A stretch of 45,565 bases of DNA from Candidatus Omnitrophota bacterium (GTDB lineage: Bacteria; Omnitrophota; Omnitrophia; Omnitrophales; Aquincolibacteriaceae). The stretch spans positions 1 to 45,565 of the forward strand of contig JAZDJU010000057.1 of NCBI GenBank assembly GCA_043803685.1, written 5' to 3'. Positions within the stretch are counted from its first letter, which is position 1. Every line of letters starts with the position of its first letter. A program made the position numbers and the translations under genes. Positions 26,001 through 32,000 of this stretch are shown here, one piece after another. The notes beneath the pieces are model-generated. The model made no database searches. It saw only the letters and a list, made by a program, of their open reading frames with translations, and was not told the origin of the DNA.

Positions 26001-29000
26001 TTCGACAATTCTTCGCCCATCTGGCGACCATGACCGAAGGGATCGAGAGGCAACGGCAAAACATGGTCCGGGGGGCTGTTCTTTCAGGCTGTGTGGGCGC
26101 GCTGTTTTTGATCTCTTGGCTGTTTCCGTTCCGAGCGGACATTCCCGAGGGTTGGGCGGCGCTTTCCAGTCTTTTCGTATCTTTATGCGTCGGAGCTATG
26201 AGCGGATTTATAACGCACAAGATATGGGACTCGCGCTCACGGAAATATTCTTTGTATTATTTAGATAACATCAAAAAGATCGCCCATCCTGAAAGAGAAG
26301 AAAATCTCCAAACATTAAAGACCTTGATCCCGGGAGCGGACGATCTGGGGAAGGCCTACGACATGATGCTGAGCGATGTCACCACCCGCTTCAAGAACGG
26401 AAGGCTTTCCGGAAGATTATCCGTTCGGTTGCGCATCCTGCCTCGAGGACAAGAAAATCCCCGTCATACTTTTTGGAAAGGCTTCTGGAATCGCGCCGTT
26501 GCGGAGATCCGGTTCGATCATTCCCGGATCGTGATCAAGGCCAAAGGCAAAAAAGAAGAGGTTTTTCCCGTGGTGATCCCCACCGGCGATTATTCTTCGG
26601 TCAAGGCGCTTGTGATACAGGGCAGAAAGGCGATCAGGCGGAACATCGAAGAGCTGATCTTTGAAAAAACGGGAGCCCGGCTGGGGCGATCTTTTGAAGA
26701 GATCGTGGGGTTGATGGAGGCATCCGGGCGGGTTGTGACGCTTGAGGTCACGGGTGAGACGATCGCGTTACACAGTGATCTTGACGAAGTTTCCGTGACG
26801 ATCGACGATCAAGGGGAAATCCTGAAATTGCCTTTTTACAGCCACGGCCTGTACTCCCCAACACTGTTCAAGCGTTACGGGAAATATCTCTTTGGATATC
26901 ATTCCCATCCTGTGATCCGAGGCATCACTCCCGATGATATGGATGTGATCGAAAGCTCCTCAGAGACCTTTGATCGTCCCATCCCCGAGATCATCTGGAG
27001 CCGGAACGGCTCTACGGAATTATACGGAGACGTCTATATGCCGGTCCCCGAAAAAATTTCTGAAAGGAACGGCCTGGAAAGTTATTTTGGCGTTAGTGAT
27101 GTTCCCGTCCTGACCCTGAAAGTGACCCTGCCTTCTGAATTTAATTTGGGTTCCACTCCCGCGGCCAACGCTCGCTCCGAGATGCGTACCGTGCCATTAG
27201 AAATGCGCACGGAACTTTCTGAAGTTGTGAATGTCTCCAGGACCCAGCGGCCGAGCTTGTCGACAGCTGAGCCGATGTCTTCTGTTGCCCGGGAGATCTT
27301 AAAGTTATTGGCTTCGGTGGACGGAAGATACATTCGAAGATCCCACGTCACACCCAGGATCGTTCAACTCTTGTTGAGCATTCAAAGGGATGGAAAACCG
27401 GTTTTTCGTCATGGCCACGCGCAAAAGATCGGGAACTTACGGAAGATAGGGGAGCGGCTTCCTTTGCTGGAATATTTACTTGCCTACAAAAGCTCGGTTG
27501 CGGGAAAGTCAACGTTCATGTTCCAAGGCACGCATATCTCCATGATCCTGAAAAGCTCGCGCTCCCAGGACGAGATCAAACGCGTGATCGAGCTGTTAAT
27601 CAAGTTGAAGATCACCGAAAGCAGCCCGATCTCGAAGATCGTTTTTAGTTCTCGGCCTGAAGAGGAGATCCCCGGATTGGTCAGGGTATTAAGGAGGTTG
27701 GGAATCACCGAAAACAGTCCGGTCGCTACGATCTTACAAGGGACCCGGCCTGAAGCCGAGAGCGAGAGAGTGATCGAGGTGTTAAGGAAGTTGGAGATCA
27801 ATGAAAGCAATCCGATCGCAATGATATTGAACAGCTCTCGACGCGAGGAAGAGATCCCGGAATTGATCGGGTTGTTAAAAAAGCTTGGCATCACTGGAAG
27901 TAACCCTGTCGCTATGATCTTGCAAAGCTCGCGTCCCGAGGACGAGATCAAGCGTGTGATCGAGCTATTGGATGGGTTGGGGATCACGGAAAGCAATCCG
28001 GTCGCCAAGATCTTGCATAGCGATAGATCCGAAGACGAGATCAAGCGTGTGATCGAGCTGTTAGATGGGTTGAAGATCACTGGAAGCAGTCCAGTCGCCA
28101 AGATCTTGGAAAGTTCGCGTTCCGAGGCCGAGATCAAGCGTGTGATCGAGCTGTTAGATGGGCTAAAGATCACAAGAAGCAGTCCAGTCGCCATGATCTT
28201 GCAAAGTTCGCGTTCCGAGGCCGAGATCAAGCGTGTGATCGAGTTGTTAGATGGACTAAAGATCACAAGAAGCAGTCCAGTCGCCATGATCTTGGAAAGT
28301 TCGCGTTCCGAGGCCGAGATCAAGCGGGTGATCGAGCTGTTAGATGGGCTGGGGATCACGGAAAGCAGTCCGGTCGCAAGGATACTGCACAGTTCTCGAT
28401 CTGAGGCGGATATCCGGAAAGTGATCGGGATGTTAAGGGGATTGGAGATCACCGACAGCCATCCGATCTCTCTGATCTTGCAAAGCTCGCGTCCCGAGGC
28501 CGAGATCAAGCGAGTGATCAAGTTATTAGATGGGCTGGGGATCACGGAAAGTGGTCCTGTCGCTATGATCCTTTACAGCTCTCGACGCGAAGATGAGATC
28601 CCGGAATTGATCAGATTGATAAAGAGTCTGGGCGTCACTGAAAGTAACCCGATCGCTAGGGTGTTGCGAAGTTCGCATGACCAAGGCCAGATCAAGAAAA
28701 TGATCGAGTTTCTAGATGGTTTGAAGATCACTGGAAGTAATCCTGTCGCCACGATCCTGCAAAGTTCTCGCCCCAAGGACGAGATCAAGCGGGTGATCCA
28801 GTTATTAAATGGGTTGGGGATCACGGAAAGTGGTTCTGTCGCTATGATCCTTTACAGCTCTCGACGCGAGGATGAGATCCCGGAATTGATCAGGTTGATA
28901 AGGGGCCTCGGAATTACCGAAAGCCTTCCGATCGCGAGGATCATAAAGAGGTCGCGATCGAAGAAAGACTTAAAAGCTTTTGATGGGTATAAGCGCAAAA

Positions 29001-32000
29001 TGGAGGAGAAGCATTATCCCGGGCATTTTGTTCCCTATGTTTTAAGTCGCTTAGCCCTAAGCAAGTCTCCGGATAGCTTGTTTAGCAAGATCATCGCGTT
29101 TGATTTTAACGTAGCCCGATCGTATGCAGAGCAGATGCCGCTCAATACCAGCAGAAGAGAGTTTGACAGTTATTTTGGCAGTATGTTTGGCGGTATGTTT
29201 GACGGTATGGGGGAATGGCTTTTGCGGTTCCTGGGGAAAGACTTCCGTTCTTTACGGGCAGTGATCCGCGGCTACGCAAAAGAGCTTTTGTTGCTGGATG
29301 TTTTTCCGGAAGGCATGGGTATGGACAGAATGAGTCCCGTGAGTCAAACGACAGGCGTGGATCGTTCACGGCTTTGGCAGTTCCTCGAACCCAGCATCGC
29401 GGCACTTTCCCATGACGAGCAGGAGGTTGTTGAAGCTTTTCTGGAGGGGATTACGGAGAGCGAGATCGGTGTTATGTACCCGTACATTTCATTCCAGGGA
29501 TTACTGGACAAGCTTAGGGCAGCGCTAGAGCAGGGAGTCGATCTGAGAGAGGGTGTTTATTCGGCTACTTTTAATAGATATACGGGATTCGAGCCTCCGA
29601 TGGAAGACGCCCCATCAGGGGAGCCAACCTTTGCCATGCCTTTGCTGCCGGACGCTTCAGGTGGTTTGGGAGATGCGCTAGAGACTCGCTCCGAGATGCG
29701 GAGCGCGGAAGGCCCTAGGGCAAGAACGGCGTTGGATGGTTACGCGGATTCTATGGCGCTTTATCCTCGGGGGCTCCTGCATTCGATAGACCTTAGGGAA
29801 TCCCTCGATCCTTTTGATAAAACGAATTATGAATTCGTGGAAACGCCGGAGGGCAATTATTGGCGATCCAAACATTTCAAAGGCGCCAACGAACTCGTTT
29901 TGGGTTCCTGGGAGGATATTGTTGCCGTGGACCCTGCGCTTCCGGCCAAGATGAAAAGGAATATCGTAACGCGTTATAAATTGTCCGATGGGAAAACGGC
30001 GAGTTTTTATTACTTCGACGATCACGGCCGGTCTGTCGCATACGCGATGGAGGCGGTCGCTAGAGGAGAAATGCCAGCCGTGGGCAACACGCAGATATTT
30101 ATCGATGCCCATGAAGACAACCATGAGGCTCCGGCGTCGCCTTCCATGCCGATCTCTTTGGAGGACTGGGATTCTCTGACCGGAACGCAGGTGCGCGCTG
30201 ACAATTTTAATACGGCGCTGGGGCGTATCCAGTTCTTGAAGAACCATCTCCATATCAAACGGGTGGGGAATGCTTCAAAGTTTGACTATTGGTTGGTCGG
30301 GAAGAAGCAAAGCTACTTTGAGTTCCGGATGCGTCCGCAGAACCAGCCTGCCATGATCAATATCGACACCGATACGACCGGACAAACGAAGTATTTTCTG
30401 AACGCGCCCTCTCCCAAGCTCGGCGTGGAGGCCTCTGATCTGAGGTTTTATTCAGAGCTTCTGTTGAGGCTTTCGCGCAAAGATGGCGTGTCCCCCTCGA
30501 CCTTTCACGCGACGACCACCAGCGCGCATGCCACGCAAGACGTCTATACAGAATTTGGCGACGTCCGCATCGTCCAGTTCCTTGCAAGGGTCGCTCCGGC
30601 GATCTTGTTGTATCCGCCGGAGAAATTGAGTGAAACGAAGCTCACGCCCCTTATCAATCAAGTGATCCCCGCATACGTTACCGCCCGGCCATCGGCTGGA
30701 AATGTTAAGTCCCGTTCGGAAGTGAGGACCGGGATTGTTGGGAATCCATTTCCGAGGCTTCGATCGATGGGGCAGGTCGGGAGAACACATTTGTTTAATG
30801 CTTTTACCGGGAAATATGAGATGCGGAATCTGCTCAAGGGAGGTCCGATCAGACAACCAGATTTCTTCGCAGCATTGAGTCGCGATGAGAGCAAGTTGGA
30901 AATGCTGAGGAGAAAGTACGGTGAGATGGTTGGAGATACATCGTTCGATCCAAACTTTGCGAACCCGGAAGATGTTGTCGCGTTTGATCCGGTGATCGAC
31001 CAATTCCTGGAAGGAAAGTTGGGCGCTAGCTTGATCTACAAACCTAACCATGGGGCTTGGAGTCAAAAGGTGTTTTTTTTGACGAGGGATACGGAAAATA
31101 ATGTGACGGTTTCCATGAACCTCGGGAAGGGTTTAATTACCAATGATTTTGCCAAGACGCTGCGGGACTATTTTAAGGAAACTGGCGAAGCTGAGATCCG
31201 GGAAAACTCGAGTGATTCGGCTAATCCGATGGTTCGATTTACACTGCCGTCTTCCCGGGAGGATCTCCGGAATATCCTTCTGAAGATCAAAGATAGGATC
31301 TCTGTTTGGGAGGTTGATAACACTCACCACCATTTTGCTGAATATGATTCAGGAATGATAGAGTCCGCCATGGACTTTGTGAAGCCTGATGGATTTGCTT
31401 ATGAGACACGGCATCGCTTGAAAGGGAATTTATTGAAGGGAACAACTACGCTCGATAAGAAGAGCGCCAGGCAGATGGGCATGGAAGCACTTACAGGTCC
31501 TTCCGGCTGGTTTGCCAGGCTGGGGAGCGACGCCTATTTCACAGGAGGAGAAGATATTCTTTATCCGCAAATGTTCCAACCGCTTTTTAAGGAACTCCAC
31601 CTTCCAAAGACAAGGCAAAAAGAGTTTGAGGAGCATGTGGATCAGCTTGTTAAGGCGGAGTTTGAATACCTTGCGAACCGTCTCAAAGCTGCCGGTATCT
31701 TTCTGGATGCGGATTTGGAAGTGCAGTTCGATCTGATGTGGCTGCCTCCGGAAAAGAATAGTGACGGATTCCCGGTCCCTATTGTTATAGAAGCAGCTAT
31801 TCATAGGAGTTCTGATAAGGGCATTCCTGAAAAAATTCCAGTGCGATCCGAGGATCCCGGACGCCGTCCAGAGGGAGACGTTAAGGCTCGCTCGGAGGTT
31901 CGGGATGAAACAGACGCCGGGCCAGGGACGCCGGACCCAGGGCAACAGCCCGGGCAAAGTATTCAGCCTCCAAGGGAGCAGGAAATTCAGCCCTGGCAAA

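What the first reader, a model, noticed from the sequence alone, without database searches (positions are those of the whole stretch)
28931..29530. Repeat array is fused directly to a degenerate sigma-70-like domain
Seen in sequence: the array is followed by a segment ending [13 protein letters not shown], resembling FliA region 2.4, and then [29 protein letters not shown]...LLDKLRAAL, resembling region 4 with a shortened recognition helix. Inference: promoter recognition may have moved to the repeats while the sigma part recruits RNA polymerase. That would be a bacterial analogue of a TALE plus activation domain, able to redirect transcription in a host or prey bacterium.
Basis: inference. 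Interest (0 to 1): 0.88.

Follow-up and report, generated by a model that had tools for sequence, protein, structure and literature searches.

The report
mTERF repeat array with sigma-4 tail
One unit of a giant bacterial polyprotein joins a repeat array of a nucleic-acid-binding type to a worn copy of only the last domain of a sigma factor, so it is not a sigma factor but an undescribed, probably exported, DNA- or RNA-binding protein.

Summary
The quoted peptides are in the sequence, in frame, directly after fifteen 31-residue repeats. All of it lies in one unit (nt 27188-29686) of a >8490-aa open frame of an Omnitrophota genome. The units of that frame are separated by R-S-E-[V/M/I]-R junctions. 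This scan has seen the junction motif before on other DNA.

A 12-sequence profile of the tail finds FliA first in the PDB (E 8.7e-4) and first in the own genome. One relative passes Pfam's Sigma70_r4 cut-off. The modelled last 70 residues match sigma domain 4 (Z 7.3).

The window copy alone gives no hit. The "region 2.4" claim is not supported by profile, profile-profile or fold searches.

The repeats are mTERF-type, not TALE-type.

Repeats plus tail recur in four giant frames and six stand-alone proteins. All six stand-alone proteins start with a signal-peptide-like segment.

Verdict: a new mTERF-sigma-4 architecture, not a sigma factor.

The parts
20096..45565 (+). Giant ORF (>8490 aa, open at the contig end) that holds the finding. 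It has a signal-peptide-like N-terminus and about 17 units separated by R-S-E-x-R junctions.
   Evidence: the window is the whole contig C57
27173..27187 (+). Junction motif RSEMR in front of the unit
   Evidence: in this genome the motif is about 70-fold enriched in ORFs of 2000 aa or more
27188..27532 (+). Unit leader plus conserved pre-repeat 'cap' ([12 protein letters not shown]...FMFQGTHI). The same cap precedes the repeats in the homologues.
   Evidence: no Pfam family at E<=10
27533..28927 (+). Fifteen in-phase 31-aa (93-bp) mTERF-type repeats
   Evidence: Pfam mTERF 45.3 bits against cut-off 23.1; homologues reach up to 91.9 bits
28928..29302 (+). Sixteenth half-repeat, then a family-specific helical domain of 7 predicted helices. 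It includes [13 protein letters not shown] at 29252-29290. No known fold or family was detected.
   Evidence: (pLDDT 77.5)
29161..29209 (+). 12-bp tandem repeat (4.1 copies). It encodes an 8-residue insertion (within [11 protein letters not shown]) found only in the window copy.
29294..29365 (+). Low-confidence linker. It aligns with the sigma region 3.2 / sigma2-sigma4 linker.
29363..29569 (+). Sigma-70 region 4-like four-helix HTH domain ([29 protein letters not shown]...LLDKLRAAL)
   Evidence: relative P0010 is over the Pfam cut-off
29570..29686 (+). Poorly conserved spacer that runs to the next junction
29687..29701 (+). Junction motif RSEMR after the unit
   Evidence: the same bounds (RSEVR ... 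RSEIR) enclose the homologous unit in L089

Best explanation
Nt 28931-29530 is the C-terminal part of one junction-delimited unit (nt 27188-29686) of an Omnitrophota giant polyprotein-like gene.

The unit has four parts: a cap, fifteen mTERF-type 31-residue helical repeats, a family-specific 7-helix domain, and a diverged sigma-70 region 4 HTH with its upstream linker. It lacks sigma domain 2, so it is not a sigma factor.

Shown here: the domain make-up, the recurrence of the fusion, the junction bounds, and the export-type N-termini of the stand-alone forms.

Inferred: the repeat solenoid binds nucleic acid, as mTERF proteins do, most likely double-stranded DNA. The sigma-4-derived HTH adds a second contact, either to DNA or to a protein. 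The unit is released at the R-S-E-x-R junctions and acts outside the producer's cytoplasm, on foreign or extracellular nucleic acid.
For: Unit bounds: RSEMR at aa 2360 and aa 3198. The homologous unit in L089 is bounded by RSEVR and RSEIR. R-S-E-[VMI]-R occurs 121 times in 96,840 aa of ORFs >=2000 aa, against 18 times in 1,009,291 aa of ORFs of 200-2000 aa.

Repeats: mTERF PF02536 scores 45.3 bits in the window. In homologues it scores 91.9, 62.1, 37.0 and 30.3 bits, cut-off 23.1.

Sigma-4:
- The A1 profile finds FliA 1rp3 at E 8.7e-4, and 8 of 15 PDB hits are sigma factors.
- The own FliA is the best non-self hit of 20,693 ORFs.
- Pfam Sigma70_r4_2 matches 3 of 12 members and Sigma70_r4 matches 1 of 12.
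- P0010 scores 26.2 bits on Sigma70_r4, cut-off 24.1, and 41.4 bits on TIGR02937, cut-off 42.9.
- VIA-align on the AF2 model gives SigA region 4 (6ono_B) Z 7.3, rmsd 2.7 A over 62 residues, and 24 of the top 30 rows are sigma factors.
- In Foldseek, 44 of the 47 listed rows are sigma factors or chains of initiation complexes of sigma length, although the best E is only 0.26.
- hhalign E is 8.1e-5 (ECF) and 2e-4 (group 1/3), above 40 shuffles.

Recurrence: 11 credible hits among 1.84 billion representatives. Eight have the repeats directly upstream, one is tail-only and two are fragments.

Export: signal-peptide-like N-termini in 6 of 6 stand-alone forms and in the giant ORF. There is none in P0010, at the unit start, or in the own FliA.
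Against: - No binding of any kind was tested.
- The window copy alone shows no significant likeness to sigma.
- The repeat fold was not modelled, because both fold jobs went to the tail. Other Pfam families also score on the repeats, for example ALS_ss_C at 67 bits, presumably through repetition.
- A crude hydropathy count would place this unit on the cytoplasmic side if the segment at aa 675 crosses the membrane once. That disagrees with the export signals of the stand-alone forms.
- Cleavage at the junctions is inferred and not shown.
- The recognition-helix positions are not conserved across the family.
Confidence: 0.5

Rival explanations
1. The repeats read DNA sequence and the sigma-like tail docks on RNA polymerase, here through sigma-4 on the beta-flap tip. 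An exported protein would thus redirect or block transcription in a host or prey bacterium, as a TALE-plus-activation-domain analogue or a form of sigma appropriation.
For: - Sigma-4 likeness.
- mTERF-type repeats.
- Export-type N-termini in 6 of 6 stand-alone homologues.
- Repeat position 7 lies inside the invariant IL-x-SSR and varies among Q/H/Y/R/S/K in 113 repeats.
- Omnitrophota giant proteins have been linked to predation (passages of 10.1101/2023.11.21.568195).
- A complete FliA-like sigma factor sits as a unit in another giant ORF, G028:C24.
Against: - No sigma domain 2 was detected. By established knowledge domain 2 carries the strongest core contact and melts the promoter.
- Repeat variation is spread over at least 9 positions, with no RVD-type code.
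- No RNA polymerase contact was tested.
- If the prey were archaeal, there would be no bacterial beta flap to dock on.
Confidence: 0.15
2. The unit is a protein-binding or structural scaffold on the cell surface or in the periplasm. The helical repeats bind proteins, as HEAT or TPR units of other giant proteins do. The sigma-4 fold is an evolutionary leftover with no DNA or polymerase contact.
For: - Export-type N-termini.
- HEAT and TPR repeats are common in Omnitrophota giant proteins (passages).
- Residues of the recognition helix are not conserved.
- 11 of 12 rows lack 7 residues relative to the canonical P0010.
Against: - The repeats score on mTERF and not on HEAT or TPR.
- The near-invariant S8-S9-R10 in 113 repeats suits phosphate contacts. 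This is an inference.
- The tail is conserved at 31-58% identity across the family, with a conserved sigma-4 core: L150, E154 and E169 are invariant.
Confidence: 0.2
3. The likeness to sigma factors is chance, or a generic helix-turn-helix convergence. The tail would be an unrelated helical domain.
For: - The window copy alone has no hit.
- Foldseek E values are all above 0.26.
- Z is 7.3 at most.
- GerE/LuxR and other HTH families also appear weakly.
Against: - Independent searches all rank sigma factors first: the PDB sequence profile, the own genome, Pfam and NCBIfam on P0010, fold search and hhalign with shuffles.
- The P0010 C-terminal part alone reaches hhalign probability 89-93%.
Confidence: 0.05

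Closest known systems
Sigma-70 family, region 3.2-4 of FliA/sigma-28 (PDB 1rp3) and of ECF sigma factors
   Same: The last ~75 residues align with the linker plus regions 4.1 and 4.2. They keep the L..L..L-x-x-E-(Q/R) start, the hydrophobic core and the E-I of the first HTH helix. The modelled fold matches sigma domain 4.
   Different: No sigma domain 2 or 3 was detected. DNA-contact positions of the recognition helix are not conserved, and the helix is possibly 7 residues shorter. The domain sits behind a repeat array in exported proteins or polyprotein units.
mTERF family (Pfam PF02536; human MTERF1 and plant organellar mTERFs)
   Same: Tandem units of about 30 residues that score over Pfam's cut-off. 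By established knowledge the family binds DNA or RNA as a helical solenoid.
   Different: These are bacterial, although one preprint states that mTERF genes are missing in prokaryotes (passage of 10.1101/2022.01.18.476766). The units are unusually regular, 15 in phase without indels. They are fused to a sigma-4-like tail. The fold and the binding were not tested here.
TAL effectors of Xanthomonas
   Same: A long array of regular repeats joined to a C-terminal part related to the transcription machinery. The stand-alone forms are probably exported.
   Different: The unit is 31 residues. Variation is spread over at least 9 positions instead of an RVD pair. No TAL effector Pfam match is listed. 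No type III signal, nuclear localisation signal or acidic activation domain was looked for or seen.
Omnitrophota giant 'multi-enzyme' proteins (West-Roberts et al. 2023, 10.1101/2023.11.21.568195; 10.64898/2026.06.07.730766)
   Same: A giant ORF with a signal peptide, transmembrane segments and many unrelated domains: beta-CASP, DnaJ, NUDIX-like, Rce1-like and methyltransferase. Cleavage into several products has been proposed (passage).
   Different: Term searches of the two preprints found 0 occurrences of mTERF and of sigma. The R-S-E-x-R junctions are known to this scan. For the words 'motif', 'cleavage' and 'linker', one search found no occurrence in the 2026 preprint.
Phage T4 AsiA/MotA sigma appropriation (recalled, no call)
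   Same: A precedent for redirecting RNA polymerase through region 4 and the beta flap.
   Different: No sequence or fold relation was tested. It is named only as a functional analogy for the rival model.

Membership tests
Sigma-70 family sigma factor | Domain 2 (regions 2.1-2.4), profile level: match to Sigma70_r2 or to aligned sigma domain 2 | tested here: not met
   PF04542 over the own genome gives 5 matches, none on contig C57. A2 against 21 ECF sigmas gives probability 0.2%, and against group 1/3 sigmas 2.9%. The P0010 N-part gives 0.2% and 1.0%. The A2 profile against the PDB finds no sigma among 8 hits.
Sigma-70 family sigma factor | Domain 2, fold level | tested here: inconclusive
   The N-domain model (pLDDT 77.5) gives a best Foldseek E of 3.8 and a best VIA Z of 4.2, with no sigma listed. 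pLDDT falls to 51-61 over the last 30 residues.
Sigma-70 family sigma factor | Domain 4 (regions 4.1-4.2, HTH) | tested here: met
   Met at family level. The window copy alone stays below detection.
Sigma-70 family sigma factor | Binds RNA polymerase core and directs promoter-specific initiation | not tested
The rest needs bench work.
mTERF (PF02536) | Tandem motifs of about 30 residues that score over the curated cut-off | tested here: met
   The window array scores 45.3 bits against 23.1, in 3 stretches. P0002 scores 91.9, P0001 62.1, P0006 37.0 and P0005 30.3 bits.
mTERF (PF02536) | Helical solenoid fold and nucleic-acid binding | not tested
Sequence search of the PDB gave nothing. Binding needs bench work.
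TAL effector | 33-35-residue near-identical repeats with a hypervariable residue pair | tested here: not met
   The unit is 31 residues. Entropy is high at positions 4, 7, 11, 13, 16, 17, 20, 21 and 24 in 113 repeats of 9 proteins. No TAL effector family appears among the Pfam hits.
Junction-punctuated giant polyprotein-like genes of Omnitrophota | Giant ORF of unrelated units separated by a genome-wide enriched R-S-E-x-R motif | tested here: met
   The same unit is bounded by the motif in L089. Cleavage itself was not tested.
LuxR/GerE-type HTH (PF00196) | Profile match better than to sigma region 4 | tested here: not met
   GerE matches 1 of 12 members at E 0.0022. Sigma70_r4 reaches 2.7e-6 and Sigma70_r4_2 matches 3 of 12 at 8.9e-5.

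The most novel reading that the evidence does not exclude
Exported mTERF-sigma-4 proteins of Omnitrophota, whether stand-alone or cut out of giant polyproteins, enter or touch another cell. There the repeat array binds its DNA or RNA, and the sigma-4 remnant occupies the beta-flap site of its RNA polymerase. Transcription of the prey or host would be silenced or re-aimed. This would be a bacterial, sigma-derived counterpart of TAL effectors.
Probability: 0.1. Interest if true: 0.85.

Novelty: new variant of a known kind. Interest (0 to 1): 0.5.

Why it matters
mTERF arrays and sigma region 4 are both well known. Their fusion, in bacteria, in exported proteins and in units of giant polyprotein-like genes, did not turn up in the papers I searched.

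It gives a concrete, small, expressible piece (about 830 residues, or the 432-residue P0004) with which to ask two questions. What do single units of Omnitrophota giant genes do? Can these suspected predators or parasites handle foreign nucleic acids or transcription?

It also shows that bacterial mTERF-type arrays exist in very regular form. That may be of use as a designable nucleic-acid-binding scaffold if binding is shown.

Tried and rejected
- Window tail as a single query: Pfam found 0 families at E<=10 for three cuts. PDB phmmer gave 5 weak non-sigma hits. The ESM Atlas gave no usable hit.
- Sigma domain 2 or 'region 2.4' for the N-domain: profile, hhalign and three fold searches all came back empty. 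With P0010, hhalign extends a collinear alignment into ECF region 2. That part has no significance of its own.
- Region 3 for helices 5-7: hhalign places them there. No fold search supports it.
- PDB sequence search with the cap plus repeats found nothing.
- NCBIfam on the unit and on homologues gave only sub-threshold repeat artefacts, apart from the sigma families on P0010 and P0008.
- Distribution: the A1 model was not found in 400 other sampled Omnitrophota genomes, only in the own genome. Giant repeat-rich genes are often unassembled, so this is weak evidence.
- Neighbours of the stand-alone homologues (L034, L036) gave no telling context.
- The N-terminal domain of P0006 met only unnamed Omnitrophota clusters in the Atlas.
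- Sequencing runs: no RNA holder is listed. Four DNA runs hold shares of 0.05-0.06, and none was laid.
A2 was used instead.
- Complex prediction (beta flap plus sigma-4-like tail) was never accepted and then declared unavailable, so there is no result either way.
- P0012, the 12th hit (E 7.2e-4, four short stretches in a repeat protein), was left out of A1 as probably spurious.

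
Full report
CONTEXT. The window is a whole contig (C57) of a 2.89-Mb, 133-contig genome. Earlier notes of this scan call it an uncultured Omnitrophota bacterium. Two of the three related loci found in genome records are titled Omnitrophota MAGs.

From nt 20096 to the contig end runs one open frame of more than 8490 codons. It starts with a signal-peptide-like segment. By a crude hydropathy scan it has several membrane-spanning segments. It carries unrelated Pfam domains: beta-CASP/RMMBL, DnaJ, Rce1-like and a PrmA-like methyltransferase, with weaker NUDIX and M50 matches, and mTERF.

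The pentapeptide [R/K]-S-E-x-R occurs 17 times in the frame, between these domains. In six-frame ORFs of this genome, R-[S/A]-E-[V/M/I]-R occurs 121 times in 96,840 residues of ORFs of 2000 aa or more. In ORFs of 200-2000 aa it occurs 18 times in 1,009,291 residues. This scan has already described the junction motif in giant Omnitrophota genes of more than 100 other genomes. It is context here, not the finding.

The gene fits the 'multi-enzyme' class of giant Omnitrophota proteins (passages of 10.64898/2026.06.07.730766). West-Roberts et al. proposed that such proteins are cut into several products (passage of 10.1101/2023.11.21.568195).

THE OBSERVATION. The finding lies in the unit between RSEMR at nt 27173 and RSEMR at nt 29687. 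After a conserved 'cap' come fifteen 31-residue units in perfect phase, aa 2480-2944. TRF reports period 93 and 14.1 copies.

A sixteenth unit breaks off after about ten residues and runs directly into the tail. Both quoted peptides are there, in frame. The fusion is therefore real and direct.

WHAT THE TAIL IS. A phmmer search of the 252-residue tail against 1.84 billion representatives gave 12 proteins at E<=0.001. I dropped the weakest, P0012, which has four short stretches in an unrelated repeat protein.

Of the other 11:
- Eight have the same repeats directly upstream: P0001-P0008, with only about two degenerate units in P0007.
- Two are fragments that start inside the tail (P0009, P0011).
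- One is a 336-residue protein with the tail but no repeats (P0010).

The 12-row alignment A1 has 42% mean column identity.

Its profile, searched against 177,635 distinct PDB sequences, gave 15 hits at E<=10. The first three are sigma factors: FliA 1rp3 at E 8.7e-4, and two further entries at 2.9e-3. Eight of the 15 are sigma factors. The aligned part runs from the linker before region 4 through the first HTH helix.

The same profile against all 20,693 six-frame ORFs of the own genome puts the 272-residue FliA gene first after self, at E 1.9e-3. Nothing else is under E 0.4.

Pfam on the 12 members singly gave Sigma70_r4_2 in 3 (best 8.9e-5) and Sigma70_r4 in 1 (2.7e-6). It gave nothing for the window copy. 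P0010 passes Pfam's cut-off for Sigma70_r4, 26.2 against 24.1 bits. It nearly reaches NCBIfam's sigma-70 superfamily model, 41.4 against 42.9 bits.

Profile-profile comparison gave E 8.1e-5 (probability 61%) against 21 ECF sigma factors of the phylum. It gave E 2e-4 (probability 47%) against 27 group 1/3 sigma factors. Forty column-shuffled versions of A1 reached scores of at most 22.1 and 25.4, against 37.1 and 36.2 for the real alignment. The reversed alignment reached 17.8 and 17.7.

An AlphaFold2 model from A1 (mean pLDDT 70) shows a seven-helix N-domain (residues 1-115), a disordered linker (113-136) and a four-helix C-domain (136-204).

With VIA-align against 48,161 chains, the C-domain's best matches are SigA region 4 (6ono_B, Z 7.3, rmsd 2.7 A, 62 residues) and sigma-A domain 4 (4g6d_A, Z 6.7, rmsd 1.8 A, 55 residues). 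By their titles, 24 of the top 30 rows are sigma factors.

Foldseek found nothing at E<=0.001; its best E is 0.26. Yet 44 of the 47 rows listed are sigma factors or chains of initiation complexes of sigma length. Reading chain F as sigma, and RPSH/RPSD/RPSB as sigma-H/D/B, rests on titles, lengths and recalled UniProt names.

The agreement of sequence, profile and fold searches is what carries the claim.

WHAT THE TAIL IS NOT. The N-domain was aligned (A2), modelled alone (pLDDT 77.5) and searched.
- Foldseek: best E 3.8.
- VIA-align wide: best Z 4.2.
- Second look: best Z 2.7.
- No sigma factor is listed in any of the three.
- The A2 profile finds no sigma factor in the PDB.
- hhalign gives 0.2% against ECF sigmas and 2.9% against group 1/3 sigmas.
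- The Sigma70_r2 model finds five sigma genes in the genome and nothing on this contig.

[13 protein letters not shown] looks like the FliA string IRGSIMDELR by eye. hhalign, however, places it opposite the end of region 3.1, just before the 3.2 linker.

With P0010, a collinear alignment runs into ECF region 2. The N-part alone has no significance, at 0.2% and 1.0%, while the C-part alone has 89-93%. A remnant of domain 2 or 3 cannot be excluded, but nothing supports it.

Without domain 2, the protein lacks what established knowledge of sigma factors names as the main core-binding and DNA-melting part.

The 'shortened recognition helix' is ambiguous. MAFFT gives 11 of 12 rows a 7-residue gap against P0010, while hhalign aligns the helix to ECF sigmas without a gap. 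The positions at the start of that helix vary across the family.

THE REPEATS. The window array scores 45.3 bits on Pfam mTERF, cut-off 23.1, in three stretches. Homologues score 91.9, 62.1, 37.0 and 30.3 bits. Other families also score, ALS_ss_C the most, but through many short partial matches, which I read as an effect of repetition.

In 113 repeats from nine proteins, positions I5, L6, S8, S9, R10, I15, I19, L22, L25, G26 and I27 are nearly fixed. Positions 4, 7, 11, 13, 16, 17, 20, 21 and 24 vary. Position 7, inside IL-x-SSR, takes Q/H/Y/R/S/K.

This is not the TALE pattern of one hypervariable pair.

A plant mTERF preprint states that mTERF genes are missing in prokaryotes (passage). The listing of 12 of the 33 papers that combine mTERF, bacteria, sigma factor and repeat showed no bacterial fusion by title or abstract start.

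WHERE THE FUSION OCCURS. There are four giant-frame contexts:
- the window;
- P0003, which is probably the same as L035;
- P0007;
- L088/L089. In L089 the unit is bounded by RSEVR and RSEIR.

There are six stand-alone forms: P0001 (= L034), P0002, P0004, P0006 (= L090), P0008, and the split gene of L036 that ends in P0005.

All six stand-alone forms begin with basic residues followed by a hydrophobic stretch (12-residue Kyte-Doolittle maximum 2.3-3.4). P0010, the start of the window unit and the own FliA do not (0.4-1.3). This is a simple rule, not a trained predictor.

The A1 model was not found in 400 other sampled Omnitrophota genomes.

In passing, a complete FliA-like sigma factor (34% identical to the own FliA over residues 35-258) lies as a unit between R-S-E-x-R motifs in a 7637-codon frame of a genome of the same order. 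Sigma-related units in these giant genes are therefore not unique to this window.

HOW IT MOST LIKELY WORKS.

Shown: the architecture of cap, mTERF array, helical domain and sigma-4-like HTH. Also shown are its recurrence, its junction bounds and the export-type N-termini of the free forms.

Inferred: the array binds nucleic acid as mTERF proteins do. The HTH adds a DNA or protein contact. The unit is released at the junctions and works outside the producer's cytoplasm.

I give this 0.5. The architectural part is far more certain than the functional part.

VERDICT. The region 4 likeness is real, the region 2.4 likeness is not supported, and the fusion to the repeats is real.

The thing is a new combination of known parts. 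Interest is moderate (0.5). It would be high if docking on a foreign RNA polymerase were shown.

Noticed in passing
window 20096-45565 and other contigs of the genome: R-[S/A]-E-[V/M/I]-R junction motif: 121 in 96,840 aa of ORFs >=2000 aa, against 18 in 1,009,291 aa of ORFs of 200-2000 aa. Thirteen of the 21 ORFs >=2000 aa carry at least two copies. This scan already knows the motif from other genomes.
   Followed up: partly
L032 (G028:C24), locus nt about 1400-2200: A complete FliA-like sigma factor (regions 2, 3 and 4; E 2.5e-29 to the own FliA) lies as one unit of a 7637-codon frame, between RSEAR and RSETR motifs.
   Followed up: partly
window 29161-29209: A 12-bp tandem repeat (4.1 copies) adds 8 residues (within [11 protein letters not shown]) to the N-domain of the tail. 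The insertion is absent from all relatives aligned over that column.
   Followed up: partly
window 41636-45565: The last unit in the window holds a degenerate array that resembles the unit-6 repeats ([21 protein letters not shown]), a HEAT repeat, a second and more canonical mTERF region (30.5 bits), and a P/K/A-rich '[10 protein letters not shown]' repeat near nt 44400-44520.
   Followed up: partly
window 22631-24955: One unit is a full metallo-beta-lactamase/beta-CASP/RMMBL nuclease, of RNase J/CPSF type by its Pfam names. It is one of several nucleic-acid-related units in the same frame.
   Followed up: no
genome G000, contigs C59, C123, C75, C67, C98, C114, C72 and others: Sixteen stop-to-stop frames of 3000 aa or more, the longest 10,126 aa. 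Four of them (5861, 5124, 3333 and 3018 aa) have no R-S-E-x-R motif and may be another class.
   Followed up: no
L036 3274-5372: The homologue in this Omnitrophota MAG is split into a 250-aa ORF (signal, cap, repeats) and P0005 (repeats, tail) by stops inside the repeat array. This could be a frameshift or an assembly collapse.
   Followed up: no
P0001, P0006, P0008, P0009 (C-termini): After the tail, stand-alone homologues carry a conserved, un-named C-terminal region that starts with GG(I/V)D(L/F). P0001, P0006 and P0008 also share a large un-named N-terminal domain. Neither has a Pfam match.
   Followed up: partly
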